NCBI GenBank assembly: GCA_000004985.1
Contig: GG738885.1
Origin: Naegleria gruberi
Taxonomy: Eukaryota
Reading direction: 5' to 3' (one strand)
DNA: 64,000 nt
A program made the position numbers and the translations under genes. Below are positions 939 to 54,869 of the stretch, piece after piece. The notes under the pieces were generated by a model. The model saw nothing but the letters and a program-made list of their open reading frames with translations. It made no database searches and was not told the DNA's origin. How positions within the stretch are numbered: position 1 is the stretch's first letter; every line of letters starts with the position of its first letter.

Positions 939-988
939 NNNNNNNNNNNNNNNNNNNNNNNNNNNNNNNNNNNNNNNNNNNNNNNNNN
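939..988. other. Assembly gap (50 N)
   Basis: Run of n. Confidence 0.99.
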
Positions 989-4598: not shown

Positions 4599-5417
4599 NN
4601 NNNNNNNNNNNNNNNNNNNNNNNNNNNNNNNNNNNNNNNNNNNNNNNNNNNNNNNNNNNNNNNNNNNNNNNNNNNNNNNNNNNNNNNNNNNNNNNNNNNN
4701 NNNNNNNNNNNNNNNNNNNNNNNNNNNNNNNNNNNNNNNNNNNNNNNNNNNNNNNNNNNNNNNNNNNNNNNNNNNNNNNNNNNNNNNNNNNNNNNNNNNN
4801 NNNNNNNNNNNNNNNNNNNNNNNNNNNNNNNNNNNNNNNNNNNNNNNNNNNNNNNNNNNNNNNNNNNNNNNNNNNNNNNNNNNNNNNNNNNNNNNNNNNN
4901 NNNNNNNNNNNNNNNNNNNNNNNNNNNNNNNNNNNNNNNNNNNNNNNNNNNNNNNNNNNNNNNNNNNNNNNNNNNNNNNNNNNNNNNNNNNNNNNNNNNN
5001 NNNNNNNNNNNNNNNNNNNNNNNNNNNNNNNNNNNNNNNNNNNNNNNNNNNNNNNNNNNNNNNNNNNNNNNNNNNNNNNNNNNNNNNNNNNNNNNNNNNN
5101 NNNNNNNNNNNNNNNNNNNNNNNNNNNNNNNNNNNNNNNNNNNNNNNNNNNNNNNNNNNNNNNNNNNNNNNNNNNNNNNNNNNNNNNNNNNNNNNNNNNN
5201 NNNNNNNNNNNNNNNNNNNNNNNNNNNNNNNNNNNNNNNNNNNNNNNNNNNNNNNNNNNNNNNNNNNNNNNNNNNNNNNNNNNNNNNNNNNNNNNNNNNN
5301 NNNNNNNNNNNNNNNNNNNNNNNNNNNNNNNNNNNNNNNNNNNNNNNNNNNNNNNNNNNNNNNNNNNNNNNNNNNNNNNNNNNNNNNNNNNNNNNNNNNN
5401 NNNNNNNNNNNNNNNNN
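4599..5417. other. Assembly gap (819 N)
   Basis: Run of n. Confidence 0.99.
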
Positions 5418-27123: not shown

Positions 27124-28457
27124 TTAAAAATGCATTAGAAAGTCAGTATTCTTCAAATTGGCGTTTGACAAGTTGCATTCACTCAATTCACAATTTTGGA
27201 AATTAGCACCTGCCAAATCACAATTACTGAAATCACATCCTCTCATCGTGCTTCCTTTAAAATTACACCCTCTTATATTCATTCCACTAAAATTACAACA
27301 ACTCAATTTTGAATTTTCCAAATTTGTTTTCTGAAGAAGGAAATTCCTCATATTCACTCCATTCAAATTCAAACTCAAATCACCTCCAGCAAACACATTT
27401 GAAAGTCTAATCAAGTCAAGTTGTGAATTGAGTAATTGTTTTTCCAAATTTGTCAATTGAAATAATTGACAGGCATCAACGAGTCCATGTTTCATTTCTT
27501 TCAAATCAATAATTCCAAATCTTAACCAATCCAAAATGTGTTTGAATACGACTGGATCACAATTAATGAAATAAACATCATCTTTGAATGATGTACAAGG
27601 TGTTTGATATAGCGGATGTTGACCTGTCAACATTTTCTTGAATAAATTGTCAGGTTCTCTCTCGTTATGAAGTAAATCACCTAAGGAGACTGTCAAGATT
27701 GTTCCACCAACATTTAAAGGAATTGGTTTGTTGCTGGATTCGAATATTTCTCTTTGCAATTTTTCCTTTTCAAACTTTTCAATTAGTTTTTGTAAATCTT
27801 GATCTTTTGATTCAAATTCTTGAACTAGTTCAGCTCTTTTAACTTGAAATTCACTATTTGTCTGATTGATCATCTGTTCATGTTCTGTCTTGAATTTATT
27901 CATCAAATCTTGATATTTCCTTTCCAATCCAATTTTCCTTTTTTGAAATTCTTCTTCCAAATTAACTTTCAATTCCTCAACTTGTTTATAAGCATCCAAC
28001 AGTGGACAATACCTTTCCTGATGATCTTTCAATTGTCCTCTCTGCACTCCACCCTTACACATCGAACATTGCACTTTCAATTCATCCAACTTGTTCAAAA
28101 TATATTTGGGAACTGCCAATGAATTCTGTTTCAAATCATTTCCTCGACAAAGTGGACATTTATCAACTTTATCGATAATGCACTTGGAACAGAACATTTG
28201 ACCACATTCAGAATGCATGATTGGATCAATGAATGGATATTTACAGATGGAACATGTTAAATCTTGATCAATATTGTGTAAATCGAGATAAAGTCATGGT
28301 TTGGTTGATTAGTTTCGGAATATTCAATTCTTGAAAATTCATCGTAATTGATTTGTTTTTCAGGGTTGGTAGATGAAATGGTTGGATTGTTGTAGTTCGA
28401 ATCTTCATAAAACGTGCGAGAAAGTTTATCATTTGACAGTTGTGGTTGTTCAGACAT
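27124..28457 (-). CDS. RING/zinc-finger + coiled-coil + BTB/POZ (T1/KCTD-type) + pentapeptide repeats: the N-terminal part of a KCTD9-like/TLDc fusion protein
   Basis: ORF 27124..28218 contains the Cys/His cluster CSICKYPF..HSECGQMFCSKC..CPLCRG, a long coiled coil, the BTB T1 signature PIPLNVGGTILTVSLGDLL..DPVVFKHILDWLRFG, then pentapeptide repeats up to the stop. An upstream in-phase-shifted ORF 28257..28457 (MSEQPQLS..) probably supplies the true N-terminus via another 1-nt frameshift near 28230-28260. Confidence 0.55.
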
Positions 28458-32901: not shown

Positions 32902-34407
32902 TTAAATGATTATTCTCTTCTTAATGGCTTCCTTCTTTGCCAACTTTTCGAATTGAATTGTTTGTTTGAAACGATGATGAGTGTCAAGCATCAAAATGCA
33001 AATTTCAGATTCGACATCATCAAATAATGAATCAATCAAATGTTCGTTTTGAGCAGTGGCAAATAAATCCAAGTGATTCTTGACCTTATCGGTCATGTAT
33101 TTTGGCAGGTTGACAGATTTTTCACCTCTGACATCTAAATAATCTGTGTAGATTTCGAACGAAATTTCGTACTTCTTCTTTTCCACATCAAGTAAATCCT
33201 TTTCACTAAATTTCTTCTTTTTCTTCTTGTGATCTGTTGAATCAGAACCTGCATCACTACTTATTTCAGATGAAAGCTCGAACAAATATTCTTGAATGTC
33301 AAAACTCCTTTCACACAAAATTTTGTAATCTGAAATCTTTTCCAAAATTTGGAAGTTCTCAATGCTCAACTCAATCTGACAATGTTTTCTAAATAATTCT
33401 CTAGTAATTGGATGTTCCATTGTATCCATTAATAGAAATGCTCTCACTTGATTGAGTTTTCTATTAGTAGATTCATCCTTCTTGACTGATGCCACAAATG
33501 AAGTGACAATGACAGGAACTACCAATATAAGTGAAATCAAAATGACTACTAGTGAAATAGTAACCATAATGACAGTTACACTCTGACTATCCTTCTTGGT
33601 ATTATCCACATAGGAGACCATGATTTGAAATTCATCCTTATATCCATCAAGATAGGTTTGATATTGTTGTGAATTTAACAAAATCATGGCAGTTGAATAG
33701 TTTCCATTCATTGCTAGTCTGATAGCTCTTTGTTCGAGAAAGATGGCTTTGGAGGTTTCTAATTCTGCATTAGGTTTTCCCTTTAGTGCCACATTTCTAA
33801 TAGATTCTGGAACGAGTGCTTTAAAGTAAGCAGTATTGTTACTGAACTTTGACAGATAGGTATTGTACTTGGTTTGATATAATTGAGTAAGTGTTAAATT
33901 GTAATTGGAAAAGACTGAAGATCTGGCAGCTGCAATAGTTGTTTCTCTATAATAGTTAGTGTCAGAATCCAAATTATCCCACACATTGTTATATTCGTAT
34001 TGTAACACGAACGCAGCAATGATTAGACCAGCCAAAATGAGGAATGAAGTTAAATTAATAACTAGAGAACTCAAACTGAAAATTCTCAATGTTGAAAGCT
34101 GTAAAGTTCCTAAGCAAGTATTACAAGTGAGAATGACATCTGAATCTTTGCTCTTAACTGAAGAAGAACGTGGTGTTCTTATTGATGTAGTAATGGACTT
34201 GGCAGGTCCTTCTTCAGCAATATGTGAATTGGTAGTGGATGAATCATATTTTACACTTGCAAACTTTTTAGGAGGTTGCATTGGACTTGAAATTGGTGGA
34301 CTAGTTGCCAAATCGCTCGGAGAAGAACACTCTGCAGGAGAATGAAGGTTGACTTGACTGGTGCTCAACTCTTTGAGTTCTTGCAGTGAGCCACTGTTGG
34401 TGGTCAT
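32902..34407 (-). CDS. Receptor-like RGS protein: N-terminal tail, TM1, ~200-aa extracellular sensor-like domain, TM2, then a cytoplasmic RGS domain
   Basis: Two strong hydrophobic helices (LVINLTSFLILAGLIIAAFVL and VTVIMVTISLVVILISLILVVPVIV). The RGS signatures are LLMDTMEHPITRELFRKHCQIELSIENFQILEKISDYK and EIYTDYLDVRGEKSVNL..ICILMLDTHHRFKQT. Paralog of 53181..54869. Confidence 0.65.
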   Translation of the reverse strand: MTTNSGSLQELKELSTSQVNLHSPAECSSPSDLATSPPISSPMQPPKKFASVKYDSSTTNSHIAEEGPAKSITTSIRTPRSSSVKSKDSDVILTCNTCLGTLQLSTLRIFSLSSLVINLTSFLILAGLIIAAFVLQYEYNNVWDNLDSDTNYYRETTIAAARSSVFSNYNLTLTQLYQTKYNTYLSKFSNNTAYFKALVPESIRNVALKGKPNAELETSKAIFLEQRAIRLAMNGNYSTAMILLNSQQYQTYLDGYKDEFQIMVSYVDNTKKDSQSVTVIMVTISLVVILISLILVVPVIVTSFVASVKKDESTNRKLNQVRAFLLMDTMEHPITRELFRKHCQIELSIENFQILEKISDYKILCERSFDIQEYLFELSSEISSDAGSDSTDHKKKKKKFSEKDLLDVEKKKYEISFEIYTDYLDVRGEKSVNLPKYMTDKVKNHLDLFATAQNEHLIDSLFDDVESEICILMLDTHHRFKQTIQFEKLAKKEAIKKRIII

Positions 34408-36601: not shown

Positions 36602-38566
36602 TTGTTTTAAAAGTTTAAATCTTGATGAGCAAGTAGCTACATTTTCATATCAATAACACAGTAAAGGAAGTGAAGGAAACATGCAATGATCCAAATTGCG
36701 AAATCGTTCAATGACTTCCAAACGAAGAATTATTCAAAAGAAGAAACTTGTCCAATTGACCATGTCCTTGCTGAATTCCCCAGATATCATTAATTCGTAA
36801 AATAGATTCTGACATGATAACGAGTTCGAATAATTGTGGTGCCAATAACCATGTTCATTGCGTTACTATTCCTCAAAAGTAATATTAAACGACCGAACTT
36901 GCCTAAACGAAACCTAAAGAATCCAACCATCTAAAGAACAATCATTACATTTGAACTGACCATCAAATAAAAAGGAATATCACATTATCTAGATAGTGTA
37001 TGCGAATTGTAAGCAAAATCATGTCAGGCGTTGTTATCACCACAATTAAATCCTACATTAAGTGCGAGTATTGTATACAACCAGCATGTTGTTGTTGTTA
37101 TTCATCATCATCGTTAAATATCATTATGTGAGAAATTTCCAAGTTGTTGTACTTGATATTGGCATGTTCATCAGAAGAGATCTTGTTGTTGAAGATTCCA
37201 AATAAAGGGTCTCTATAATGTAATGTCAGAAATTAACCGAAAATAATTTTGTTGTGGGTTAATGATCATGTAATTGCTGATGAAGTTATTGTTGATGAAG
37301 ATGTGCTCCAACACACACAAATTACATATAATCTCACCACATGGACAATCTAAATCAATGAATGTGATTTTAGCTAAAATACCAACACATAAACATGATG
37401 TAATTTCGCAATAATTATCTGACGCCATATGTGAAGGAACATGGGAGGAAACACCAACCACAAACAAATGTTATTTCCACCACAAAACCACATCTATTTC
37501 TCTTCGGAAGCAGGCACATCAAACAATTAAAGGAGTAAATAGTCTAACATCATAATATTATACTGAGTAAACAATTCTTTTCGCAAATGGCAACAAACTT
37601 GTTGGAGATGTATTTTTCTGCTCTCCAACAACAAAGTTAATATAAAGTTGTTTCAACCCAAGCATACAAAATCATACAAATATTACATATAATTTTCATC
37701 GTGCTTATCATCATCAACCATATTATTATTGTATATTATTATTTTTTGTATGTAAACAATAACGAATGATCACATAATACAACCACACATCCATCTACAC
37801 AAAAAAACCACATAGGAATTCATACAACATTGCAAAAACCATTACTTCAAGTATGGTCATATCATCATTATCATCACTGTGGTTAACTCTCTCATGGGTA
37901 TCCACTACTCATCTCTCCAGAAGAACAAAAAAGATAACTTGCTATCATTGATGACGTAATTTTTTGTTATTTACTCAGCAAATTGAATTTCCGTTGCTAG
38001 AGAGATCCTCTTCCTGTGAGAAAACAGTGGTGAAGTTCAAATTTGGGTACGTGACCGGTTTGGGAAATTTTATTAATGTGAGATTTTGAAAGAGGGTTTG
38101 AATTTCCAAGGTATTATTCGTGGTGGGTAAAGTGGAATGTGAACCTGATTTCATCTGTTGATGAACTACAGTTGTTGTAGTTGTGATGTAAATATTGAAA
38201 ATGTCAGTGCTCAAGTTTATTTTACAGAGCTCTTGTCAATGGTTGTAAAGGAATGTCCAAAACTTGAACATCTCCAAATCATAACTTGTGTTTTCATTCC
38301 TCCTAACTGCAGATTTTAATCATAAAAACTCTAATTTTTTAATTAAATGTCTTTTGACAGCATCAACTTAAAAAGGGCAATTAATGTTCCAAATTTGTCT
38401 ATCTTTACAGCTTGTTATTGATTGGGACATATAGAAGTCTGTTTTCGTTATATAACATTTATAGGAGAGATCTCTTGGTATACGAATATTGAATATTCAG
38501 TTTCTCTTTTTCTTGAAGAACTGCTTTCAAAAGAATATTAAGAAGAAAAAAATAGAAAAAAACAAG

Positions 38567-39013
38567 ATGAGCATTCAGTGTAGACTTCAGAAAGGTCAAC
38601 AAGATTCGAATATTATTCAAGATGACACATTAATGCAAATTTTTAACCAAACTAAACATAACAAAAAGAAGATTATCAAACAGAACGAACAACAATTCGT
38701 ATGGAAACGATTCAATACATTATTCATTGATTATTTTCAAGAACCAAAAACAAAACGAAAGACATCTGACATTAGCAAACAAGAAATTTTAAAAGTATTA
38801 CATCTTACTCAAAGACAGGCATGTAAACAACTTGGATGTACATTATCCACAATGAAAAGAAGATTTTACGAATTGAAATCTGATCTTGGTTTGAAATGTT
38901 GGCCACAGAATTATAATGAAATTTGTAACTTGCCAATATTTCCAAAAATTTATCCATTGAGTTTGAGTTTTATCTTGAATGCTTCAAATGACGAAACGAG
39001 TAAATCTGAATGA
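38567..39013 (+). CDS. Minimal RWP-RK domain protein (RKD/MID-like), paralog 1
   Basis: ISKQEILKVLHLTQRQACKQLGCTLSTMKRRFYELKSDLGLKCWPQ matches the RWP-RK consensus (L..yF.....AAK.LGV..T.LKR.CR..GI.RWP.RK), with a divergent K[CS]WPQ core. First ATG at 38567 (track start 38489 is TTG). Confidence 0.6.
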   Translation: MSIQCRLQKGQQDSNIIQDDTLMQIFNQTKHNKKKIIKQNEQQFVWKRFNTLFIDYFQEPKTKRKTSDISKQEILKVLHLTQRQACKQLGCTLSTMKRRFYELKSDLGLKCWPQNYNEICNLPIFPKIYPLSLSFILNASNDETSKSE

Positions 39014-39825
39014 ATGATTCAGGATTATCAACTTGACCAAAAATCAGTCACATGCCAATCCATCAAAAAAAACCAACTTGCTAACAATAATCATCAATAA
39101 AATGTAAATAAACACAATCTTAACTCTTTCCAAAATATAAAAATTTAATTTTTTTCATTAATAAATCCAAAAAACAACAATTAAGCACACAACCAATCTC
39201 ATAGACAAAAATACAGAACTATTTGACTCACTATTTAAAATTGGACATGCAAGTTTGGTTGTTCCACTAAAACTATATAAAATTAAAGAACCTCTTTCTG
39301 ATTCACCAACAAATTTCAAAGTTGGTTTTTCAGGACAGTAAAAGAAGGAGTGTCAACTGTATGTGTATTGATCTTGCTAATAATTCATCCACTAATAATT
39401 GGAAGAATTGGAGAAACTCATACCCTGGACTCTTCATTATTTCCAATAAGAAACTCTTCGAGTATCATCAGACGTAAAATTGACTTGTTTTTTTAGTTTG
39501 AAATCTGTTGATTAAGTGAGCGATATTTGGCCCTAGTTCCAACTTAGTACGAAATCAAATCACTATCATTTCGAATAGGGTAATTTCGAATAACCTATAG
39601 GAAATGTGATTCATTGCATCTATGACTATCATGTAAATCTCTCTATTACTTAAAAATACAACAAAATTAGCATAATAGATTTTGTATTGTGGTTGATGGC
39701 ATTTCAAAGCACATCAGTTTGACATTTGGATGTAATTGTTACCTCTCTGTAGATGTCATTGCACCTAGTTGCAATAACTGTTCTGAATATTCTGAATATT
39801 TTTATGAATAATAAAAACAAACAAA

Positions 39826-40236
39826 ATGAGCTCTGTAAATAATTCCACCATGATTAGAGACACTTTGACAATGCAAATATTTGGCTCAGCAAAATCCACG
39901 AAAAAGGGCAAAATTCAATCAGCTTCTGACTGTCAATTTGTTTGGAAGAGAGTTGACACAAACTTTGGTGTATTTTTCTTGGAGAAAGATCTCGAATTTA
40001 GGTCAAAAAGAAAGACAACTGACATTAGCAAACAAGAGCTCATTAAAGTTTTACATCTTTCTCAAAGACAAGCTGCCAAATCATTGAATTGTACATTATC
40101 AACATTGAAGAGAAGATTTTATAATTTGAAAGAAGAATTTGGAATGTCAACATGGCCAAAGACATTTAAGGAAATAAGTCACCTGCCAATTTATCAGAAA
40201 ATGTATCCAATGTCTTTGAATTTCATCCTCAATTAA
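39826..40236 (+). CDS. Minimal RWP-RK domain protein, paralog 2
   Basis: ISKQELIKVLHLSQRQAAKSLNCTLSTLKRRFYNLKEEFGMSTWPK..HLPIYQKMYPMSLNFILN. Confidence 0.6.
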   Translation: MSSVNNSTMIRDTLTMQIFGSAKSTKKGKIQSASDCQFVWKRVDTNFGVFFLEKDLEFRSKRKTTDISKQELIKVLHLSQRQAAKSLNCTLSTLKRRFYNLKEEFGMSTWPKTFKEISHLPIYQKMYPMSLNFILN

Positions 40237-41069
40237 CTGAAAATATTCCAACATACATGCTTGCAGTAACTTATCATGTGCAAGAGATGAAAATTATCAA
40301 CCTACGTTGACAAGTAGACGAAACTTTATTTGCCAGAAATTGGACAAACTTTAGATTTAAAATTCCATGAAATGTAATTAAATGTAATTAATGAATAAAT
40401 TGTTGGACGAACGAAACAAATGTATTGAACACATGCCCTTGTTAGTTGTTTTCTCACTAACTATTCGAAAAGCGTCAACCAAGATATATTGAGCTCCATA
40501 AATTTCACCTCTTTGATACATCAATACTAATACAGAGATTATATTTACTATTAGTGGATCTATCCTCCTCAATGTCTAGTTCATGTAGTATTGTTGAATA
40601 TTCATTAGCACAGATAGTTGTCCTGTTCTTCACTACTGAGTAGAATGCAAGATTAAAGTGTTTGTACATGTACTAATGGTATTTCGTCTATCGTTATTGG
40701 AAACATGAAGTTTAAACATAAATCATGAAATAGGCAAGAGGAATTACATACCTCCCTTTCCAATCTCCTTTTACATCATGAGAGGCTTTTATAAAAACCT
40801 CCTTTCTAATTCGATTTTGATTCGAACAACTTGTTAGAAACTGATTTGGAGTAAACTTGCAATTTTGTATGAAATTTGGCAAAGGCCGAGGATTGAGCCA
40901 ACAAAGCTACTGGAATATTGTTGTTCCTGCTGTTCTCAAAATGTCAACATCTTTACCTAGTTGACATTTAAGGAAAAACGACAAGAGACATATTTTTAAT
41001 AAGGAAACTATTATGACCAGAAGAAAGAATGGAAAGTTATCATTCTGTTCATTTAACAACCATTAAAAA

Positions 41070-41546
41070 ATGAACAGACAAGCTACCGGCATTACCAAAC
41101 AATCCAAACGAAACAATAGTTCACTTTCGAATAACCGATTCCATACAACGCATGTTTCGTCATCCACTTTTCCCAACACCCAAACAACCTCTCCACTCTC
41201 CAACACCATTTCCTCCTCCCAAATCATCTGGAAACAAGTCAACTCTCCCTCTGGAAAATACTTTAAAGAAAGCGCGCCAAAAGATTACCGAAAGTCCAAA
41301 ACCATTTCACAAGACGAAATGATTCGTGTATTGCATTTATCCCAAATTCACGCCTCAAAAATCCTGAATTGCAGTTTATCGACATTGAAGAGAAGATTCT
41401 ACGAATTGAAAAACAATTTTGGGCTCAAGTCGTGGCCTCAATATTTTAGAGAGGTGAGACATTTGCCGATTTTTAAGCAAATGTATCCGATGAGTTTGAC
41501 ATTTATTTTGAATGTTGATGAGGAAAAGGTGGTGAATGAGGAATAG
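41070..41546 (+). CDS. Minimal RWP-RK domain protein, paralog 3
   Basis: ISQDEMIRVLHLSQIHASKILNCSLSTLKRRFYELKNNFGLKSWPQYFREVRHLPIFKQMYPMSLTFILN. Confidence 0.6.
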   Translation: MNRQATGITKQSKRNNSSLSNNRFHTTHVSSSTFPNTQTTSPLSNTISSSQIIWKQVNSPSGKYFKESAPKDYRKSKTISQDEMIRVLHLSQIHASKILNCSLSTLKRRFYELKNNFGLKSWPQYFREVRHLPIFKQMYPMSLTFILNVDEEKVVNEE

Positions 41547-41972
41547 TTGAGATTAGGTTTAGAATAGAGATAGTTCTGTAATTTTTGAAGAATATGGAAG
41601 ATAGATGAGAGAATATTTGTAAAATAATTTATTAATAAATCAATTGAAAACTGTAGATTTACAATTGTTGTGTTGCCAAATAATTCAAATAAAGCAATGA
41701 AGGTTTCGGAAAGTCAACCGAAACTATGTGAGAAAGTCCATCAATTAAGAAAACTCTTTACAAAACAAATATTGAGATGGAATGCATTCCCTACCCATTC
41801 TGCAAATCAAGGTTACGAAAACACAATATTCTGCAATCAACATCCATTCAAAGATCTGAGAATTTCTTAAAAGGAAAGATTCTCTGATTGACGGCTGCCA
41901 ACAGTCACAGAAATCAATAAAAGCAATTAAATTGGGTCCATCTCTCGCTTTTTAAAATCCAACCATCAGTTT

Positions 41973-43486
41973 TTGATATCTCATTCAATAACATTAAAAA
42001 AAATGGTCAACCATCTCATAATCTTGTCACTTGCCATTCTACTATTCATTTCCTCAATTTCCTGCCACATGGAAATGAAACTTCCCTCCCCACGTAAAAC
42101 ACTTCCAACAGGTGGCACCGATTACGATATGAGTTCTCCCCTAGGAGCTCAGAAACCATTTCCATGTGGTGGCAAAACCTCACTCTCCTCAATTACCACC
42201 TGGAATGCAGGTGAAACTGTTACAATCAATATCGAAGGTGGTGCCCCTCATGGTGGTGGACATTGTCAGTTTGCAATCTCTCCTCGAAGTGATCAGAAGA
42301 GGTGGATTGTTTTGGCTGATAATTTGGGAAGATGTCCATTGGATAAGAATTATTCATTCAAATTGCCAGGTGAGGTTCCAAGTGGAGATTATGTGTTTGC
42401 TTGGACTTGGATTAATGCTGTTGGAAATAGAGAGTAAGTAGTAATGGAATAGTTTGGTTTCTAATATTTTTAAGATATTACATGAATTGTGCTGATGTGA
42501 GAATTAACAATGGAGGAACTAAATTTGAAGGTAAACAACTCCTAGTAGCCAACATTCCAGATCCAAATCTTTCAGGATCATCCGTTTATTTCATTGGAGA
42601 AATTGGTGAATTCCCAAATAATCCAACTTTTGCAACTGACAAATTTCCACAAAGACCTGCTCTGACATTGACAGCAAGTGGAATTCAAGGAGGTGGAGGC
42701 GGAGGAGGCACAAATCCAACCAACCCAACCAATCCTACAAATCCTGGAATGAACAGCACTTGTAATTATTTCCTTGTTTCAGGAGATACCTTAAATGCAA
42801 TTGCTTCCAGATTTGGAACTACCTTATCTGTTATATATTCATTGAATCCAACAATTACTGATCCTACCAAGTTGCAAGTTGGTGATAAAGTTGTGTATCC
42901 ATGTTCTGGTCAATCTAGCGGTGGTTCTGGAAATACAGGTGGTGGCAGTTCAGGAAATGGAAATGGCTCTGGAACTACCAATACTTTTGGCTGTGTCTAC
43001 TCATGGACAATCATCTCAAAATTCAATGATACTAAATTAGGATTCATTGGAAAATTAAATGTCCAAACAAGTCTCGCACAGACAAACTGGAATATTGCAT
43101 GGACATTCCAAAAAGGAGGAATTTCTGCATTCAAATTGAGTAGCCAAACTTTGACATCTTCTGCACTTTCTCAGGTTGCTATTAAGGGAGAAACTCAAAT
43201 TGAAGCAAATAAGGTCATGTCCATTACGGTTTTCGGGGTTGGCGGAGTTTCAGATTCAGAAGCATTGTTTGTGAATAATGAGAGATGTACCAAGTCATCG
43301 AGTGCTGATTTTGAACAAACTAGTAATTCAGCTCCGGTGTTGGATTGCAAGTCAACTCCGACAAATTGTAAAGATTCATGTTTGGAACAGTATAATCAAT
43401 ATTGTGCTAGCTCTGGAATTGTAATTTGGAGGGGAATGAGTGCAATTATGACTGGATTGTTGATGATTTATTTGTTTGTATTGTAA
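41973..43486 (+). CDS. Secreted, probably GPI-anchored AA11-type lytic polysaccharide monooxygenase, followed by a LysM domain and a CBM2-like module
   Basis: Signal peptide ..SSISC, then mature N-terminal His (HMEMKLPSPR). HGGGHCQF and WTWINAVGNRE|YYMNCADV are spliced across a 41-nt GTAAGT..AG intron at 42434-42474, matching the AA11 hallmarks HGGG.CQ and WFNRIGNREMYMNCA. A Gly/TNP linker follows, then a LysM-like segment (CNYFLVSGDTLNAIASRFGTTLSVIYSLNPTI..LQVGDKVVYPC), a G/S linker, a W-rich ~100-aa module, and a hydrophobic C-terminus after ASSG. Confidence 0.7.
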
Positions 43487-43774
43487 ATATAAAGATTCTT
43501 ATTGGAATAGTTTAGAATAGTCATGTTTCTTTTATGAAATGGAGATTTTTAGGTGAAGAGATGGCATGGAAAAGGAAATAGTTGAAATTTAACCAAAGTG
43601 TCATATTAATACTGAAATTGTTTAATTATGAATAATAGTTGACAGATTGACATTTAAGGATGCATCAAGGAATGTCATGAATTTTAAAAAAGGTATTTAA
43701 AATATTATACGAAACCTTACCTCACTTTTTAATGTTAGACAGAACACATTTCAAAGAAACCTAAACGAAAAACA

Positions 43775-44230
43775 ATGAACAGAAACCAAGCCACTTCAAC
43801 ACTTCCAAATACAACTTATCAGAAAGCAGACGAAACTTTAGATTCCCAAGTTATGATGAATGTCTTTAAAAAGAACAATAAACAAAATACACCCACCATG
43901 CAACAATACAACCAAATAATTTGGAAACGAATTGATACTCCAGTTGGTTCCTTTTTCAAAGAAGCTCCACTTTCGAATAGATCCAAACGAAAGACACAAC
44001 AAATCAGCAAAAAAGAAATGCTACAAGTGTTGCATCTTCCTCAAAATCAAGCAAGTAAATTACTCGATTGCAGTTTATCCACATTGAAGAGAAGATTCTA
44101 CGAATTGAAAGACGATTTTGGACTAAAGTCTTGGCCTCAATGTTTTGCAGAAGTGAGGCATTTGCCAATATTTCGTCAAATTTATCCAATGAGTTTAGAT
44201 TTCATATTGAATACCCATGAAAAAATGTAG
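43775..44230 (+). CDS. Minimal RWP-RK domain protein, paralog 4
   Basis: ISKKEMLQVLHLPQNQASKLLDCSLSTLKRRFYELKDDFGLKSWPQCFAEVRHLPIFRQIYPMSLDFILN. Confidence 0.6.
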   Translation: MNRNQATSTLPNTTYQKADETLDSQVMMNVFKKNNKQNTPTMQQYNQIIWKRIDTPVGSFFKEAPLSNRSKRKTQQISKKEMLQVLHLPQNQASKLLDCSLSTLKRRFYELKDDFGLKSWPQCFAEVRHLPIFRQIYPMSLDFILNTHEKM

Positions 44231-45108: not shown

Positions 45109-46278
45109 TTATTGCTCAAAATCTGTCAGAACCTTAAAGTGAAGTAGGAAACTATCAACCTTTCCCTCCAACTCATCATAATAGTATTGATATGATAGGA
45201 ATGGGCATGGTGAATTCTTTTCACCACTCGAATAAATCTTCTTCAATGTTTTGATAAATAGATCAGATTCATATTTGATGTGTTTTCTGAATTGATTATC
45301 TTCATTAATTAAAGGAGTTTGATGTATTTTGAATTTGAATGCATCTTCATGAATTCTTTCGTCTAATAATTTACAAATACTCGTCAGTAATTTCTCACTA
45401 GTAATAAATCGATGACAATCCACAAAATTAATGGATTTTACATTATATTTCAATAATCCGACACATCTTTCCATCTCCTCTCGATTCAAATTACGTTGTC
45501 CCTCCTTTTTCAATGTAATTTTGTAACATGGAAGTACTAACTTATTTGGCTTTTCATCCCAATGTAAATAATCTTCAGATTCATTTAAATGATTTACATT
45601 CTTTGCCAAGCAATTGGCACAATTTGCAGTTTCACTTAAAATACTATTCAAAGCAACACATCCTTTCGAAAAGGCAACTAAATTCAGTTGAACATGTTGC
45701 TGATTTTCCCCAACATTTCTGCCAAATCCTTCATTCGGAAATAAATTATCCAAAATCTCGAATAGAACAGCATTTGCATTTCCCTTCACATAGAAATTCT
45801 CATATTCATAAATAAAACTCGATAAATCCAAAGTATTTGGTTGAATAATCACTAATCCACTCGTTTCTGGATACTTTCTATACAATATATCTAATACATG
45901 TTCATAATAAACCTCCATCACTCTTCCATTTTCATCATCATCAAAGCTTGACTCGAATGGATAATCCACCTGCAAATATTTCATAAAATCATTCAATCTC
46001 AATTGAATATCCCCAGGAAAAAAGATTGTATACTCCTTCTTTCCATTATTTCCATCATTCTTTTCATGATCAACAACAATATTAGTACTAATATTATTTA
46101 ATATTGAAATTTCTTCTATCCGATCATCACTACTAATCAATTTTAAATTATTGGCGGGAATCCATGAGGGAGAAAAGTAATGAACAATTTGTTGTCGATT
46201 TTCAGAGAGTTTTAATATTTTGGTTCGTATGAAGGAACCTGCTTTGCCAAAGAGAAACGTTGCAGGTGCTTTAGACAT
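45109..46278 (-). CDS. C2orf69/UPF0565-family protein homolog
   Basis: 389-aa intronless ORF with the FFPGDIQ and LVAFSKGCVALNSIL blocks that characterise UPF0565. Confidence 0.55.
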   Translation of the reverse strand: MSKAPATFLFGKAGSFIRTKILKLSENRQQIVHYFSPSWIPANNLKLISSDDRIEEISILNNISTNIVVDHEKNDGNNGKKEYTIFFPGDIQLRLNDFMKYLQVDYPFESSFDDDENGRVMEVYYEHVLDILYRKYPETSGLVIIQPNTLDLSSFIYEYENFYVKGNANAVLFEILDNLFPNEGFGRNVGENQQHVQLNLVAFSKGCVALNSILSETANCANCLAKNVNHLNESEDYLHWDEKPNKLVLPCYKITLKKEGQRNLNREEMERCVGLLKYNVKSINFVDCHRFITSEKLLTSICKLLDERIHEDAFKFKIHQTPLINEDNQFRKHIKYESDLFIKTLKKIYSSGEKNSPCPFLSYQYYYDELEGKVDSFLLHFKVLTDFEQ

Positions 46279-49791: not shown

Positions 49792-51666
49792 ATGGTTTCA
49801 ACTAGCAAGAAGAAGAACTCTTCTTCAAACACTTCCCTACCAAATAGTCCAGCCATTTCCATCACTTCAGTTGAAAGCAATGACATGAACAATTCACCAT
49901 CTTCTCTTCCTTCCTCTCCTTCGAATTCTTCCAATTTTTTCTCTTCTTCACCGAACAGCAAATCACCTGGTAGAAGACTTCACTTTTTTCCCGCCAAATC
50001 TCCTAAAAAAAAATCTACAACTTCCATCTCTACTGATTCACTTCATGCTGCAAGTAATACTAATCATGGTTGTGATGCGATAGGTGATTATACCTTTTCG
50101 TATGAGGCTGTGCTAGATGATGAGGAGACGAGACAGTGTTTATTGGAATATATGAGGACGATTAGATGTGAGGAAAGTTTGTTGTTTTTAGATCAGGTGA
50201 ATTCATTTCATAGAAAAAGATCAACTGCGAATAGGTGGAGTATGATACAGTCAATATTTGAACAATTCTTTTGTGAGCACTCGAAATATGAATTGAATTT
50301 ACCACAGAGAGTTAAGGATATGATGATTCACACCTATTCGGACGTTGTTGAGGAAATTGCTCATAGGAAGAGAATGAATCTTGATGAGGATACTAATAGT
50401 AGTAGTAATTCCAGATCATCATTGGAACAAGCAAATCAGCCACCACCACAACAACAAGTAAAACAAAACAAGAACAAGAATAATAATGAAAAGAGTAATA
50501 ATAATAATAGAAATTCTAAGGATGATTTGGATGTTTCACTAGGTTCTTTGGATTACATAGATTTGAGTGATTGTGAGGAGGCCCTAAAGAAGGCAGAGAG
50601 TTACATCCTCATCAACTTGAAAGAATATGTCTTTCCAAAGTTTGTCGGCTCTGATCACTTTCAAGGATTCATCTCAACAAAGAGCAAGACCTTTATTAAT
50701 ACTATTGGTACGGTGAAGGCCTTATCTCATTCGTGCTTTGTTGAATCATTGATGGACATGAGGAGGTGTGAAATTAATGTAGATCAAGTGAGAATGATCA
50801 AGAAACATGTCTTTGATACCAGATATTGGGATTGTATCTATCAGAAGGAAACAAGCTATGGTTTTATTTCTTCAAAAAAGTACATTCTTGGTGAGGACGA
50901 TCACGCTAAGGGTGTTTACTTTGCCAAGTGTGAAGTGATCTTTCCTTACTCTGCTGACCAAATTATGAATATCATGACCAATACAAAGAATAGAATTGAA
51001 CACGACAAGAATTTGGAAGATATCAAGAGAATTGGTTATAGAAACAAGTCTGGAACTACAAATTTTAATCCAAATCTGGTACATTCCAGTGATGAAGATG
51101 AGGATACACTCTCTTCCACTAGCTCTGCAATGTCTGACCTTCACGATACTGCATCTTCCAGATCTCATACATCAAATCATTCACATCAACAAACAAATCA
51201 TCATTCGCCAATATCAGGAAAAACCAAATTGGCCACCACATTAACACATGAACGATACAAGCTTGGTTGGCCAATCAAGTCTAGATATTATTTGCTCGCT
51301 CAGAGTATGGTACATGATACAACAGATAACATGTACATTATTGCAAAAAAGTCTTGCAGAATTCCAAATTATGATCCAGATGAAGGAACAAATATTGAAG
51401 CCATCAATATTGGTTGTTGGATGTTTCAACCTTTACTAGATGAAAATCAAAAGCCATGTTGTAAATACATTCAATTTGTTGGAACAGATTTGAGAGGAAA
51501 CATTCCAACATTTATCATTGAAAAGATTGTTAGAAAGAGAACTAGTAACTTTTACAAATCCACCATGAAAATGATCAAAGCTTGCGAAGAAGAGTCCACA
51601 ACAAGACCATTCGATTCAAGTGGTTATTTCGATACTCTAGATGAGAATGGCAGCATGGCTCTCTAA
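49792..51666 (+). CDS. RGS-domain + START (StAR-related lipid-transfer) domain protein
   Basis: An N-terminal S-rich region precedes an RGS-like segment (FSYEAVLDDEETRQCLLEYMRTIRCEESLLFLDQVNSF..MIQSIFEQFF). The C-terminal ~220 aa carry a START pattern (..GVYFAKCEVIFPYSADQIMNIMTNTKNRIEHD..RYKLGWPIKSRYYLLAQSMVHDTTDNMYIIAKKS..KYIQFVGTDLRGNIPTFIIEKIV). Confidence 0.55.
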   Translation: MVSTSKKKNSSSNTSLPNSPAISITSVESNDMNNSPSSLPSSPSNSSNFFSSSPNSKSPGRRLHFFPAKSPKKKSTTSISTDSLHAASNTNHGCDAIGDYTFSYEAVLDDEETRQCLLEYMRTIRCEESLLFLDQVNSFHRKRSTANRWSMIQSIFEQFFCEHSKYELNLPQRVKDMMIHTYSDVVEEIAHRKRMNLDEDTNSSSNSRSSLEQANQPPPQQQVKQNKNKNNNEKSNNNNRNSKDDLDVSLGSLDYIDLSDCEEALKKAESYILINLKEYVFPKFVGSDHFQGFISTKSKTFINTIGTVKALSHSCFVESLMDMRRCEINVDQVRMIKKHVFDTRYWDCIYQKETSYGFISSKKYILGEDDHAKGVYFAKCEVIFPYSADQIMNIMTNTKNRIEHDKNLEDIKRIGYRNKSGTTNFNPNLVHSSDEDEDTLSSTSSAMSDLHDTASSRSHTSNHSHQQTNHHSPISGKTKLATTLTHERYKLGWPIKSRYYLLAQSMVHDTTDNMYIIAKKSCRIPNYDPDEGTNIEAINIGCWMFQPLLDENQKPCCKYIQFVGTDLRGNIPTFIIEKIVRKRTSNFYKSTMKMIKACEEESTTRPFDSSGYFDTLDENGSMAL

Positions 51667-53180: not shown

Positions 53181-54869
53181 TTATTTATTGGAAGGAACTT
53201 TGAGAGAATCAAGATTAAGACCTGATTTACTGTCTTGAGCCTTCTTACTCTTTCTCACAGTTGGAAGTTTAATCTTGAGTGATTCCTTCTTTGTCTTTTT
53301 CTGGAATTCAACTGTTTGCTTGAATCGGTGATGGGTGTCAAGCATCAAAATACAAACTTCTCCTTCCACTGGATCGAAAATCATATCACTAAGATGTTCA
53401 TTCTCTCCTGATGCAAACAAATCTAATTGAGTTTTGACCTTGTCAGCTGCATGTTTGTTGATGTTGACAGATTTGTCACCATTGACATCTAGGAAATCAG
53501 TAAAGATTTCAAAAGCAACTTCGTACTTTTTCTTTTCAATTTCAATTAAATCTCTTTCAGTATAACCCTTTTTCTTCTTCTTTTTACCTTGGCTGTCACT
53601 ACTCATTGAAGTTGATGTTGAACCAGTGTCAGAAATGGCATCTGAAAAGGCGACAGTTAGCTCTTGATCATCATACAAGAATACTTGAATTTCAAATGAT
53701 TTCTCACATAAAATCTTGTAATCTGTAATCTTGTCAAGTAACAAGTAATTTTCCAAGCTCATTTCTTGTTTACAATATTCTTTGAATAATTTTCTAAGTT
53801 TGTTATCTCTCATGGTGTCCATAAGCATGTAGGCGTTTGCTTTCTTCAATCTCTTATTGTTGGCATTGTCAGAATTCATGGAAAAGGCAAGTGACATGAT
53901 GACTACTGGAATAACAATGACAATTGACACACAGACAATAATTAATTGCAAAGTGGTCATGGTAGTTGAGAAATCTCTATAGCTAACCTCCAAAGCCTTA
54001 AAATAATCAACAGAAGGCTTGAATTCCACTTCATACCAAGGTAAATAATCTTGATAGGTGTCAGAGCCAATTAAATTCATGGCAGCTGTAAAGTTTCCAG
54101 CTTTGACCATACTAATAGCTTGTCTCTCAACACTCATAGCCTTCACTGTCTTCATATCATAAATTGTTATATTATGTTTGACAGAATATCTCAATTCATT
54201 TGGCATGTATGCCAACATGTTATTAATTTCAGTATTGAACTTGGTTGAGTAATTTCCATAGAGATTGGCATAGCCAAGAGCAACTGTCTTGTTGTTATTG
54301 GCATAGACTGCTGAACGACATGTGTAAACCATCATGTCTCTATAATAGGAAGTGTCAAGATCCATATTTGAAATTGATGTCAATAAATTATTGCTGCCAA
54401 CGTAGCCAACAATAATGACAGTGAGTAATGCGATGAAACCAAGTAGATTAGCAGTTAAACTAGTCAAATTGACAAGCTTGAAGGATGACAGCTTGAGGGT
54501 AGTTCCACAACACATTCTGATGGCAAATAAAGAATTTGACGAGTGACTTGTCCTAGATCCAGTTCCAGATTTCTTATGGGAAGCAACAGAACTCTTCTTT
54601 TTAGACTCTTTAATGATGGTAGAAGCTGCTGGCTCTGTTGCAAAATTTGCTTTTGGTTTTGGACTGGTTGGAGTTGTTGGCGTTTGACATTTTTCCTTGA
54701 CAAGATGATCCATAGAATGACTCGAGCTAGAAAAGGATGAAGAAGCATCACCTGCTGTAAAATTTGTTGGAGTCAAGTAATAATCACAATTATGAACGTC
54801 TATTCCATTCAATTCTTCGATTGCTTTTTGCATGGAACTGTCAGCTGACACTGAAGTTGATTCTTGCAT
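53181..54869 (-). CDS. Receptor-like RGS protein, paralog 2 (TM1, sensor-like ectodomain, TM2, RGS)
   Basis: Same architecture as 32902..34407: TM helices LLGFIALLTVIIVGYV and LQLIIVCVSIVIVIPVVIMSLAF, and RGS blocks YMLMDTMRDNKLRKLFKEYCKQEMSLENYLLLDKITDYK..EIFTDFLDVNGDKSVNI..VCILMLDTHHRFKQT. Confidence 0.65.
   Translation of the reverse strand: MQESTSVSADSSMQKAIEELNGIDVHNCDYYLTPTNFTAGDASSSFSSSSHSMDHLVKEKCQTPTTPTSPKPKANFATEPAASTIIKESKKKSSVASHKKSGTGSRTSHSSNSLFAIRMCCGTTLKLSSFKLVNLTSLTANLLGFIALLTVIIVGYVGSNNLLTSISNMDLDTSYYRDMMVYTCRSAVYANNNKTVALGYANLYGNYSTKFNTEINNMLAYMPNELRYSVKHNITIYDMKTVKAMSVERQAISMVKAGNFTAAMNLIGSDTYQDYLPWYEVEFKPSVDYFKALEVSYRDFSTTMTTLQLIIVCVSIVIVIPVVIMSLAFSMNSDNANNKRLKKANAYMLMDTMRDNKLRKLFKEYCKQEMSLENYLLLDKITDYKILCEKSFEIQVFLYDDQELTVAFSDAISDTGSTSTSMSSDSQGKKKKKKGYTERDLIEIEKKKYEVAFEIFTDFLDVNGDKSVNINKHAADKVKTQLDLFASGENEHLSDMIFDPVEGEVCILMLDTHHRFKQTVEFQKKTKKESLKIKLPTVRKSKKAQDSKSGLNLDSLKVPSNK

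What the first reader, a model, noticed from the sequence alone, without database searches (positions are those of the whole stretch)
41973..43486. Secreted AA11-like lytic polysaccharide monooxygenase fused to LysM and a CBM2-like module with a GPI-anchor signal, embedded in the RWP-RK cluster
The mature protein starts with His directly after the predicted signal-peptidase site (SISC|HMEM..), the copper-binding His1 of LPMOs. It also carries HGGGHCQF and WTWINAVGNRE-YYMNCADV, which match the HGGG.CQ and WFNRIGNREMYMNCA hallmarks I associate with the chitin-active AA11 family. AA11 enzymes are overwhelmingly fungal. An AA11-LysM-CBM-GPI surface enzyme in a non-fungal AT-rich protist would point to chitin or cell-wall remodelling (cyst or spore wall), or to a horizontally acquired gene. 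The 41-nt intron falls between the R and the Y of the conserved NRE|YYMNC block, so the gene is host-adapted and not a recent contaminant.
Basis: partly seen in the sequence, partly recalled or inferred. Interest (0 to 1): 0.65.

Follow-up and report, generated by a model that had tools for sequence, protein, structure and literature searches.

The report
Unannotated AA11 chitin monooxygenase gene in Naegleria
The amoeba Naegleria gruberi carries an intact, apparently unannotated gene for a secreted copper enzyme of family AA11, which cuts chitin oxidatively and is described as exclusive to fungi, so it was probably acquired from a fungus long ago.

Summary
A two-exon gene (ATG 42003, 41-nt GT..AG intron 42434-42474, stop 43486) encodes a 480-aa protein: signal peptide, AA11 LPMO domain, LysM domain, an orphan beta-rich module, a Cys-rich stalk and a GPI-signal-like hydrophobic C-terminus.

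AA11 membership is strong. The best solved relative is the chitin-active AfAA11A (7P3U, E=3e-31). A family profile hits the three AA11 structures at 4.5e-75 to 1e-43, and other LPMO families only at E>=0.004. His22, His83, Glu144 and Tyr146 (the His brace and the AA11-specific Tyr-Glu pair) are present.

LysM is confirmed (E=1e-9). The "CBM2-like" label is not supported: no sequence match, and only a generic beta-sandwich fold from a low-confidence model. The GPI anchor is plausible but was checked only by inspection.

The window is the Naegleria gruberi NEG-M reference genome (two neighbouring ORFs are 100% identical to XP_ proteins). The gene lies in gap-free sequence between annotated Naegleria genes and has host-like GC3. 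Its intron is not shared with three fungal homologues. No model of it exists in a 15-billion-protein collection. All named homologues (<=47% identity) are fungal, mostly early-diverging lineages.

Best reading: an old, domesticated fungus-to-amoeba transfer giving a surface chitin-oxidising enzyme. Expression and activity are untested.

The parts
42003..42433 (+). Exon 1 (codons 1-143 plus the first two bases of codon 144)
   Evidence: ATG at 42003; the translation matches the homologues up to ...AVGNR(E).
42003..42065 (+). Signal peptide, residues 1-21 (MVNHLIILSLAILLFISSISC), predicted cleavage before His22
   Evidence: One of only two hydrophobic segments in the protein. Homologues have the same SP|HME junction, several with C|HME. 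His22 aligns to residue 1 of the mature AfAA11A chain. No SignalP run.
42066..42688 (+). AA11 LPMO catalytic domain, residues 22-215, interrupted by the intron. His22 is 42066-42068, His83 is 42249-42251, Glu144 is 42432-42433 plus 42475, and Tyr146 is 42479-42481.
   Evidence: phmmer to 7P3U (AfAA11A) E=3e-31, and to 9EXJ and 4MAH about 1e-16. The profile of 102 homologues hits AA11 structures at 4.5e-75, 9e-45 and 1e-43, and other LPMO families at >=0.004. H83, E144, Y146, C55 and C149 are invariant.
42434..42474 (+). Intron, 41 nt, GTAAGT...AAG, phase 2 within the Glu144 codon
   Evidence: Removing it restores the frame and the NREYYMNC motif; retaining it gives an immediate TAA. The position is not shared by Calcarisporiella, Spizellomyces or Basidiobolus homologues, nor by environmental homologues.
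42475..43486 (+). Exon 2, including the stop codon TAA at 43484-43486
   Evidence: Open frame of 337 codons. Stop-free probability is about 2e-11 at this composition.
42689..42760 (+). Linker 1, residues 216-239 (GGGGGGG-TNPTNPTNPTNP)
   Evidence: Low-complexity Gly / Thr-Asn-Pro stretch, read directly from the translation.
42761..42904 (+). LysM domain bounded by Cys240 and Cys287 (Pfam match at residues 246-284)
   Evidence: PF01476 E=1.1e-9, 38.6 bits. The best PDB LysM matches are chitin-binding eukaryotic ones: Ecp6 at 1.5e-12 and fern chitinase LysM at 6.7e-8. Bacterial LysMs score >=1.5e-4.
42905..42991 (+). Linker 2, residues 288-316, Gly/Ser/Asn-rich
   Evidence: Read directly from the translation.
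42992..43288 (+).
43289..43405 (+). Ser/Thr- and Cys-rich stalk, residues 416-454 (Cys435, 442, 446, 454)
   Evidence: Cys positions. A helix is predicted at low confidence.
43406..43483 (+). GPI-attachment-signal-like C-terminus, residues 455-480: small residues A455-S456-S457-G458, spacer IVIWRG, then a 16-residue hydrophobic tail MSAIMTGLLMIYLFVL that ends the protein
   Evidence: Hydropathy and inspection. Similar hydrophobic C-termini occur in about 7 of 120 homologues. No GPI predictor was available.

Best explanation
This is a genuine nuclear gene of Naegleria gruberi NEG-M, and I found no public protein model of it. It lies about 42 kb from a chromosome end, inside a tandem array of small RWP-RK genes.

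It encodes a secreted, modular, disulfide-bonded copper enzyme of LPMO family AA11. After signal-peptide cleavage, His22 becomes the N-terminus. Its amino group and side chain, together with His83, would hold one copper ion (the histidine brace). Tyr146 would sit axially and Glu144 in the second sphere, the arrangement specific to AA11.

By analogy with AfAA11A, the closest solved relative, the reduced Cu(I) enzyme would use H2O2 or O2 to hydroxylate C1 of a GlcNAc unit in chitin and so break the chain. That opens crystalline chitin to the GH18 and GH19 chitinases that N. gruberi also has. The eukaryote-type LysM domain would dock the enzyme on chitin or chito-oligomers. The following beta-rich module is probably a further binding or spacer module of unknown specificity. 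The C-terminal signal would tether the protein to the outer face of the plasma membrane by a GPI anchor, and hence also to the phagosome lumen.

The most likely origin is an old horizontal transfer of an AA11 gene from a fungus of the early-diverging 'NREYYMNC' type. Domestication followed: codon amelioration, gain of a Naegleria-specific intron, and fusion to new C-terminal modules.

Shown here: gene structure, family membership, catalytic residues, the LysM domain, the host genome, physical linkage, and absence from public protein sets.

Inferred: copper binding, chitin as substrate, the GPI anchor, the biological role (digestion of chitinous prey, or remodelling of the amoeba's own cyst wall), and the direction and age of the transfer.
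For: - Gene model and splice.
- AA11 membership: one search gives 7P3U at E=3e-31, with His22 aligned to residue 1 of the mature chain. One search gives the family profile against PDB at 4.5e-75, 9e-45 and 1e-43 for the three AA11 structures; the next LPMO families are at 0.004-0.34.
- Catalytic residues: one search shows H83, E144 and Y146 invariant in 102 sequences.
- Literature: PMC12186267 describes the Tyr-Glu pair as unique to AA11 and places AfAA11A in the chitin-active clade I. PMC8668981 identifies 7P3U as AfAA11A.
- LysM.
- Extracellular architecture: an even number of Cys in every module, and only two hydrophobic segments, at the two termini.
- Host identity: ORF 45109-46278 is 100% identical to XP_002674276, and ORF 43775-44230 is XP_002674180, both on the same 362,555-bp scaffold.
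- Linkage: no N run between 29470 and 61790.
- Codon composition: GC3 of 0.28 against 0.21-0.47 in neighbouring genes.
- Not annotated: the exact 480-aa and 334-aa products are absent from the 15-billion-protein collection, and the best homologue is only 45-47% identical.
- Relatives: all named homologues among the top 120 are fungal, apart from two LysM-only hits (P0076, a Firmicutes protein; P0117, a metagenomic 'LysM repeat protein'). Nearest by distance are Calcarisporiella, Basidiobolus, Spizellomyces, Paraphysoderma and an environmental clade.
- Other sources: no viral relatives. Metagenomic relatives are <=55% identical, cover the catalytic domain only, and lack this intron.
- Intron positions differ in the fungal homologues.
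- N. gruberi has GH18 and GH19 chitinases (PMC13231604).
Against: - No expression or splicing evidence (EST or RNA-seq) could be consulted, so a silent gene cannot be excluded.
- No orthologue was seen in the annotated proteomes of N. fowleri or N. lovaniensis. Their loci around the C2orf69-like neighbour are not syntenic. The age of the gene within Naegleria is therefore unknown.
- The NJ tree gives no bootstrap support for any particular fungal sister group, so the donor and even the direction of transfer are unresolved.
- Pfam has no AA11 model; it gives only sub-threshold AA9 and LPMO_10 hits. dbCAN could not be run.
- The structure of the spliced catalytic domain could not be predicted, because the tool refuses spliced sequences.
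- The GPI and signal-peptide calls are by inspection only.
- Some AA11 enzymes (AfAA11B) prefer soluble oligomers over insoluble chitin (PMC8453653), so the substrate form is uncertain.
Confidence: 0.72

Rival explanations
1. Non-catalytic LPMO-like copper protein. As in the GPI-anchored fungal X325 proteins (Cryptococcus Bim1, Laccaria LbX325), the surface-anchored His-brace domain would serve copper acquisition or wall organisation and would not cleave polysaccharide.
For: A predicted GPI-type C-terminus combined with an LPMO fold. PMC8035642 summarises that GPI-anchored X325 proteins do not catalyse chitin cleavage.
Against: The sequence belongs to AA11 and not to X325: no X325 structure appears at E<=1 even with the family profile. 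The AA11 catalytic second sphere (Glu144, Tyr146) is intact and invariant. The closest solved relative is an active chitin LPMO (PMC8668981). A LysM module argues for glycan targeting.
Confidence: 0.08
2. The enzyme is active but is aimed at another GlcNAc-containing polymer, such as the peptidoglycan of bacterial prey in the phagosome. LysM would act as a peptidoglycan-binding module.
For: LysM domains bind both chitin and peptidoglycan. Naegleria is mainly a bacterivore (general knowledge). A membrane anchor would carry the enzyme into phagosomes (inference).
Against: Characterised AA11s act on chitin or chito-oligomers (PMC8668981, PMC8453653). This LysM matches chitin-binding eukaryotic LysMs (Ecp6 1.5e-12, fern chitinase 6.7e-8) far better than bacterial ones, which score >=1.5e-4.
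Confidence: 0.1
3. A transcriptionally silent or decaying relic of a horizontal transfer in a subtelomeric region, with no current function.
For: Not present in the public gene models. Subtelomeric position about 42 kb from (CCCAAA)n repeats. No orthologue seen in other annotated Naegleria proteomes.
Against: An uninterrupted 480-codon frame in AT-rich DNA (stop-free probability for exon 2 about 2e-11). A canonical intron. All invariant family residues are retained. Every module has paired Cys. Host-like GC3 implies long residence, during which an unselected ORF would have decayed.
Confidence: 0.08
4. Fungal contamination or a chimeric assembly, not a Naegleria gene.
For: All named homologues are fungal.
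Against: The gene lies in 32 kb of gap-free sequence (29470-61790) between ORFs 100% identical to annotated N. gruberi proteins. GC3 is host-like. The best fungal identity is only 45-47%. The intron position is unlike that of the fungal homologues.
Confidence: 0.02

Closest known systems
AfAA11A from Aspergillus fumigatus (PDB 7P3U), a clade I AA11 LPMO active on insoluble chitin
   Same: The best sequence match (E=3e-31), nearly gapless over residues 22-171. It has the same mature N-terminus (HMEM), the HGGG-CQ and NRE-YMNCADV blocks, and the His brace with axial Tyr and second-sphere Glu (PMC8668981, PMC12186267).
   Different: AfAA11A is fungal. The Naegleria protein comes from a heterolobosean amoeba and carries LysM, an orphan beta module and a GPI-like signal. 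Identity is moderate (the best homologues in the protein-collection search were 45-47% identical; identity to 7P3U was not computed). Activity was not tested here.
AoAA11 (4MAH/4OPB) and AfAA11B (9EXJ/9HDG), clade II AA11 LPMOs
   Same: The same family and the same active-site residues (E about 1e-16).
   Different: They carry extra surface loops that are absent here (large alignment gaps). AfAA11B prefers soluble chito-oligomers (PMC8453653). The Naegleria enzyme resembles clade I more closely.
AA11-like proteins of early-diverging fungi (Calcarisporiella, Spizellomyces, Paraphysoderma, Basidiobolus, Allomyces, Coemansia)
   Same: The closest homologues overall (45-47% identity). They share the 'NREYYMNC' variant and the HMEM-type N-terminus. 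They are modular, with chitin-binding domains (CBM19, CBM5/12, ChtBD1).
   Different: Their C-terminal modules differ, and none matches the Naegleria beta module. Their introns are at other positions or absent. All are hypothetical proteins without biochemical data.
X325 LPMO-like GPI-anchored copper proteins (LaX325 6IBH, Cryptococcus Bim1)
   Same: A secreted His-brace fold tethered to the cell surface by GPI (the GPI is only predicted here).
   Different: No detectable sequence relationship. X325 proteins are non-catalytic (PMC8035642), whereas this protein keeps the AA11 catalytic second sphere.
LysM chitin-binding modules of fungal effectors (Ecp6, 4B8V) and fern chitinase (5YZ6)
   Same: The LysM domain here matches them best and, like the fungal type, is flanked by Cys.
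   Different: Here there is a single LysM appended to an oxidative enzyme. One environmental AA11-LysM protein (P0088) has a comparable layout.

Membership tests
CAZy AA11 (lytic polysaccharide monooxygenase) | Significant sequence similarity to characterised AA11 catalytic domains, and better than to any other LPMO family | tested here: met
   Single sequence: 7P3U 3e-31, 9EXJ 1e-16, 4MAH 1.8e-16, against AA9 4B5Q at 0.12. Family profile: 4.5e-75, 9e-45 and 1e-43, against 0.004 or worse for AA10-like, AA9 and AA15.
CAZy AA11 (lytic polysaccharide monooxygenase) | N-terminal His of the mature protein (His1 of the histidine brace) directly after the signal peptide | tested here: met
   SISC|H22MEM. 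His22 aligns with residue 1 of the mature AfAA11A chain. His occupies this column in 87% of the 94 aligned catalytic domains. Cleavage itself is predicted, not shown.
CAZy AA11 (lytic polysaccharide monooxygenase) | Second brace histidine in the HGGG-CQ block | tested here: met
   His83 is invariant in 102 sequences and aligns to the H of HGGG in all three AA11 structures. It corresponds to His61 of AfAA11B (PMC12186267).
CAZy AA11 (lytic polysaccharide monooxygenase) | Axial Tyr combined with a second-sphere Glu (N-R-E-x-Y), a combination described as unique to AA11 | tested here: met
   Glu144 and Tyr146 are invariant. They correspond to E139 and Y141 of AfAA11B (PMC12186267). They are contiguous only after the intron is removed.
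CAZy AA11 (lytic polysaccharide monooxygenase) | Match to the dbCAN/CAZy AA11 HMM above threshold | not testable with these tools
   No dbCAN library is available. Pfam has no AA11 model and gives only sub-threshold AA9 (19.9 bits) and LPMO_10 (18.3 bits) hits.
CAZy AA11 (lytic polysaccharide monooxygenase) | Copper-dependent C1-oxidative cleavage of chitin or chito-oligosaccharides | not testable with these tools
   This needs recombinant enzyme assays.
LysM (PF01476 / CBM50) | Match to the LysM profile above the gathering threshold | tested here: met
   E=1.1e-9, 38.6 bits against a cutoff of 20.9, residues 246-284.
CBM2 (PF00553) | Sequence or fold match to CBM2 | tested here: not met
   No CBM_2 hit at E<=10. 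No CBM2 chain among PDB sequence hits. No relatives among 1.84e9 representatives apart from one weak DUF4397 hit. Fold searches with a low-confidence model return generic beta-sandwich CBMs (4, 6, 16, 22, 35, 61) and viral jelly rolls, not CBM2.
GPI-anchored surface protein | N-terminal signal peptide plus a C-terminal signal: a small-residue omega site, a short spacer, and a terminal hydrophobic stretch with no cytosolic tail | tested here: inconclusive
   The pattern A455-S-S-G458 / IVIWRG / 16 hydrophobic residues to the C-terminus fits by inspection. No PredGPI, NetGPI or big-PI run was possible. A C-terminal transmembrane anchor is not excluded.
X325 LPMO-like copper proteins | Sequence relationship to X325 members | tested here: not met
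   No X325 structure is recovered at E<=1 with the family profile.

The most novel reading that the evidence does not exclude
Naegleria uses a horizontally acquired, fungus-derived AA11 LPMO at its own cell surface. It would be tethered by GPI and targeted by LysM plus a previously undescribed beta-sandwich carbohydrate-binding module. Its job would be either to open chitin in its own cyst wall (for example at the excystment pores) or to attack fungal prey. That would make it the first functional AA11 outside Fungi, and its third module the founder of a new CBM family.
Probability: 0.2. Interest if true: 0.7.

Novelty: new member of a known kind. Interest (0 to 1): 0.48.

Why it matters
AA11 is described in the literature as an exclusively fungal LPMO family (PMC8035642, citing Hemsworth 2014). 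It is also described as the most widespread fungal LPMO family, possibly involved in cell development (PMC12186267).

An intact, host-adapted AA11 gene in a heterolobosean amoeba has three consequences:
- It extends the family beyond Fungi.
- It gives a clean candidate for fungus-to-protist gene transfer.
- It suggests that free-living amoebae use oxidative chitin cleavage alongside their GH18 and GH19 chitinases, either to feed on fungi or to remodel a cyst wall whose composition in Naegleria is poorly defined.

It also shows that the 2010 reference annotation of N. gruberi misses at least one secreted CAZyme, so CAZyme surveys based on predicted proteomes would not see it. The practical weight is moderate: this is one gene, with no expression or activity data yet.

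Tried and rejected
- Exact look-ups of the spliced protein and of nearby ORFs. Three window ORFs were not on record, and neither was P0140. The host was identified through homologue searches instead and an exact cluster look-up.
- Synteny in other Naegleria species. The N. fowleri and N. lovaniensis loci around the C2orf69-like orthologue have different neighbours. A tblastn of the N. fowleri locus found no LPMO; the N. lovaniensis locus file was not found by that script, so it was not searched. Whole genomes could not be searched.
- Sequence relatives of the C-terminal module. An exhaustive HMMER search over 1.84e9 representatives gave one weak bacterial DUF4397 hit, which I judged repeat-boosted and uninformative.
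- Structure of the full spliced protein with a 102-sequence alignment.
- NJ phylogeny with 100 bootstraps. The Naegleria sequence falls among early-diverging-fungal and environmental sequences, but no sister group has support. The donor lineage is left open.
- DNA self-comparison of 36.5-46.5 kb, to delimit an insertion within the RWP-RK array. Only the RWP-RK coding parts are similar (70-79%), so no insertion boundaries are recoverable.
- Viral contigs. No relative was found, so there is no support for a giant-virus vector.
- Literature. No paper combines Naegleria with AA11 or with LPMOs in any meaningful way. I found no open-access paper documenting chitin in the Naegleria cyst wall.
Full report
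**1. What is in the sequence**

Reading 41700-43800 and the ORF table shows two same-strand ORFs, 41973-42437 and 42482-43486. They join into one frame when a 41-nt intron is removed (42434-42474, GTAAGT...TTTTTAAG).

The stop is TAA at 43484-43486. The spliced CDS is 1443 nt and encodes 480 aa.

The intron lies in phase 2, inside the Glu144 codon. Read-through hits TAA at once. Splicing produces ...WTWINAVGNREYYMNCADV..., which is contiguous in solved homologues. At the base composition of exon 2, a stop-free run of 337 codons has probability about 2e-11. The quoted motifs SISC|HMEM and HGGGHCQF are present as described.

**2. Domain anatomy**

| Residues | Feature |
|---|---|
| 1-21 | Signal peptide |
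| 22-215 | LPMO domain (Cys55, 88, 111, 149) |
| 216-239 | Gly / Thr-Asn-Pro linker |
| 240-287 | LysM bounded by two Cys (Pfam PF01476, E=1.1e-9, 38.6 bits vs cutoff 20.9) |
| 288-316 | Gly/Ser linker |
| 317-415 | Beta-rich module bounded by two Cys |
| 416-454 | Ser/Thr-rich stretch with four Cys |
| 455-480 | A-S-S-G, then IVIWRG, then a 16-residue hydrophobic end |

Only the two termini are hydrophobic. Every module has an even number of Cys. There are five N-x-S/T sequons. This is the layout of a secreted, disulfide-bonded, surface-tethered modular protein.

**3. Family of the catalytic domain**

- phmmer against all PDB chains gives 7P3U at E=3e-31, 9EXJ/9HDG at 1e-16 and 4MAH/4MAI at 1.8e-16. 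The best non-AA11 LPMO is an AA9 at E=0.12.
- 7P3U is AfAA11A, the chitin-active clade I enzyme (PMC8668981, PMC12186267). 9EXJ is AfAA11B and 4MAH is AoAA11.
- In the 7P3U alignment, His22 pairs with residue 1 of the mature chain. Both mature proteins start HMEM.
- A profile built from the Naegleria protein plus 101 homologues (A1) hits the three AA11 structures at 4.5e-75, 9.2e-45 and 1.3e-43. Every other LPMO family scores 0.004 or worse, and no X325 structure appears.
- Invariant columns in A1 include His83 (HGGG block), Glu144, Tyr146, Cys55 and Cys149.
- PMC12186267 describes the axial-Tyr plus second-sphere-Glu pair (E139/Y141 in AfAA11B, the N-R-E-x-Y block) as unique to AA11. The pair is present here.
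- Pfam has no AA11 model and gives only sub-threshold AA9 and LPMO_10 hits. dbCAN was not available.

I therefore file the domain as AA11 on four tested criteria. HMM-threshold membership and enzymatic activity remain untested. Alignment to AfAA11A is nearly gapless, whereas clade II enzymes need large loop insertions, so the enzyme looks clade-I-like.

**4. The other modules**

*LysM.* The LysM domain matches chitin-binding eukaryotic LysMs best (Ecp6 at 1.5e-12; fern chitinase LysM at 6.7e-8). Bacterial peptidoglycan-binding LysMs score 1.5e-4 or worse.

*The 'CBM2-like' module.* This label did not survive testing.
- There is no CBM_2 hit at E<=10 and no PDB sequence hit in that region.
- An exhaustive HMMER search of 1.84 billion representatives with residues 299-480 found one protein. 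It is a bacterial DUF4397 repeat protein at E=1.5e-5, summed over four repeats. I regard this as uninformative.
- Single-sequence AlphaFold2 models are all-beta (seven strands) but of low confidence: pLDDT 42 for residues 306-458 and 59 for 312-418.
- The honest description is an orphan Cys-bounded beta module that is compatible with, but not shown to be, a carbohydrate-binding module.

*The GPI signal.* It fits the classical pattern by inspection. About 7 of 120 homologues also end in a hydrophobic tail. No predictor could be run.

**5. Whose genome**

Neighbouring ORFs carry DUF4116 repeats, BTB-pentapeptide, pentapeptide-TLDc and RGS domains.
- The TLDc ORF is 90% identical to N. gruberi NAEGRDRAFT_80657.
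- ORF 45109-46278(-) is 100% identical to XP_002674276 (NAEGRDRAFT_51038).
- ORF 43775-44230(+) is exactly XP_002674180 (NAEGRDRAFT_70555).
- Both lie on the same 362,555-bp scaffold.

The window is therefore the N. gruberi NEG-M reference assembly. It begins with (CCCAAA)n telomere-like repeats, so the gene is subtelomeric, about 42 kb in.

No N run lies between 29470 and 61790, so the LPMO gene is physically continuous with annotated Naegleria genes on both sides. It sits between the third and fourth members of a same-strand tandem array of small RWP-RK ORFs (38489-39013, about 39820-40240, 41070-41546 and 43775-44230).

**6. Not annotated, no close relatives**

- The homologue search over 5.8 billion clusters found nothing above 47% identity. 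A model from this locus would have been at or near 100%.
- The exact 480-aa protein and the 334-aa exon-2 ORF product are absent from the 15-billion-sequence collection.
- All named hits among the top 120 are fungal, apart from two LysM-only hits (P0076, Firmicutes; P0117, metagenomic 'LysM repeat protein'). They are dominated by early-diverging lineages: Calcarisporiella, Spizellomyces, Paraphysoderma, Basidiobolus, Allomyces, Blastocladiella, Coemansia and other Kickxellomycotina, Olpidium and Synchytrium. These share the NREYYMNC variant. The rest are unidentified metagenomic sequences.
- No Naegleria, other protist or viral sequence appears.
- A metagenome DNA scan found 13 relatives at <=55% identity. 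They match only the catalytic domain and lack the NRE|YY intron.
- No paper in the searchable library links Naegleria with AA11 or with LPMOs in substance. PMC8035642 states that AA11 is present exclusively in fungi.

**7. Origin**

- GC3 of the gene is 0.28, within the 0.21-0.47 range of neighbouring genes.
- Intron positions differ in the fungal homologues:
  - Calcarisporiella: one phase-0 intron 10 codons upstream (after K134, where Glu144 of Naegleria corresponds to E149).
  - Spizellomyces: a phase-1 intron just before the brace-His block (GAPHNGGHCQ, the counterpart of HGGGHCQ).
  - Basidiobolus: no intron.
- The Naegleria intron is therefore lineage-specific on this sample.
- An NJ tree of 94 catalytic domains places the Naegleria sequence among early-diverging-fungal and environmental sequences. 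Calcarisporiella is nearest by distance. No sister relationship has bootstrap support.
- The N. fowleri and N. lovaniensis loci around the C2orf69-like orthologue are not syntenic. A tblastn of the N. fowleri locus found no LPMO; the N. lovaniensis locus was not searched because the script did not find its file.
- The array spacers are too diverged to delimit an insertion.

The most economical reading is one old fungus-to-Naegleria transfer followed by amelioration, intron gain and module accretion. Vertical descent from a pre-fungal ancestor with massive loss is not excluded.

**8. Mechanism (inferred from the family)**

After signal-peptide cleavage, His22 and His83 would chelate one Cu. Once reduced, the enzyme would use H2O2 or O2 to oxidise C1 of GlcNAc in chitin and break the chain, as shown for AfAA11A (PMC8668981). 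LysM would dock it to chitin or chito-oligomers. The anchor would keep it on the plasma membrane, and hence on the phagosome membrane.

N. gruberi has GH18 and GH19 chitinases (PMC13231604) with which such an enzyme could cooperate. I could not decide whether the target is fungal prey or the amoeba's own cyst wall. No accessible paper documents the polysaccharide of the Naegleria cyst wall.

**9. Rivals**

- A non-catalytic copper-handling role like X325/Bim1. This is disfavoured by the intact AA11 second sphere and the absence of any X325 similarity.
- Peptidoglycan as target. This is disfavoured by the eukaryote-type LysM and by known AA11 specificities.
- A silent relic. This is disfavoured by the intact frame, intron and residues despite long residence.
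- Contamination. This is essentially excluded by linkage and composition.

**10. Verdict**

The CBM2 label is wrong or at least unsupported, and the GPI anchor and cyst-wall role remain hypotheses.

In kind, this is a new member of a known enzyme family. The host lineage is unexpected, the domain combination is unusual, and the gene is missing from the reference annotation. Interest is moderate.

Noticed in passing
window 1-1405 (gaps 939-988, 1902-3491, 4599-5417): Dense (CCCAAA)n telomere-like repeats at 1-~450 and ~990-1405, followed by N gaps. The window is a scaffold or chromosome end of N. gruberi NEG-M, so everything here is subtelomeric.
   Followed up: partly
window 38489-39013, ~39820-40240, 41070-41546, 43775-44230 (+): Tandem array of four small (about 150-175 aa) RWP-RK-domain ORFs. 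Pfam scores for the two flanking copies scanned (41070-41546 and 43775-44230) are below the gathering threshold (E=5e-4 and 3.5e-6). DNA similarity of 70-79% is confined to the domain-coding part. The product of 41070-41546 is not in the public protein collection as such.
   Followed up: partly
window 6856-20157 (-): A single uninterrupted ORF of 4433 aa with teneurin-type EGF repeats, REJ and PKD domains: a giant surface or receptor-like protein.
   Followed up: no
window 25949-28218 (-): Two abutting ORFs (BTB+pentapeptide, 27124-28218; pentapeptide+TLDc, 25949-27124) are fused into one 685-aa public model, NAEGRDRAFT_80657, that is only 88-96% identical over the two parts. The public model probably splices out part of the pentapeptide repeats.
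   Followed up: partly
window 32902-34407 (-), 49792-51666 (+), 53181-54869 (-): Three ORFs with RGS (regulator of G-protein signalling) domains within 22 kb. An 8-repeat DUF4116 ORF lies at 24753-25898 (-).
   Followed up: no
P0004, P0006, P0007, P0009-P0012, P0016, P0028, P0054, P0071; loci L007-L014: A coherent environmental clade of AA11-like proteins (C|HME(L/M)K(Y/F)PAPR..., with a C-terminal Cys-rich ...GGPYFQCR module) on short AT-rich contigs (GC 35-39% in the two checked, L007 and L009). They are 40-44% identical to the Naegleria enzyme. The source organisms are unknown and could be fungi or other protists.
   Followed up: partly
L015 3001-3558 (contig JACCDN010782618.1, 28.9 kb): An AA11-like gene (38% identity) on a contig whose fetched 6.6-kb stretch is very AT-rich (23% GC). 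The organism is not identified.
   Followed up: no
L001 and L002 (N. fowleri VFQX01000029.1, N. lovaniensis PYSW02000005.1): The C2orf69-like gene next to the LPMO in N. gruberi lies in a completely different but mutually conserved gene neighbourhood in N. fowleri and N. lovaniensis (ERG4/24, Kelch, Ssl1, aldehyde dehydrogenase...). The N. gruberi subtelomeric arrangement is therefore lineage-specific.
   Followed up: partly
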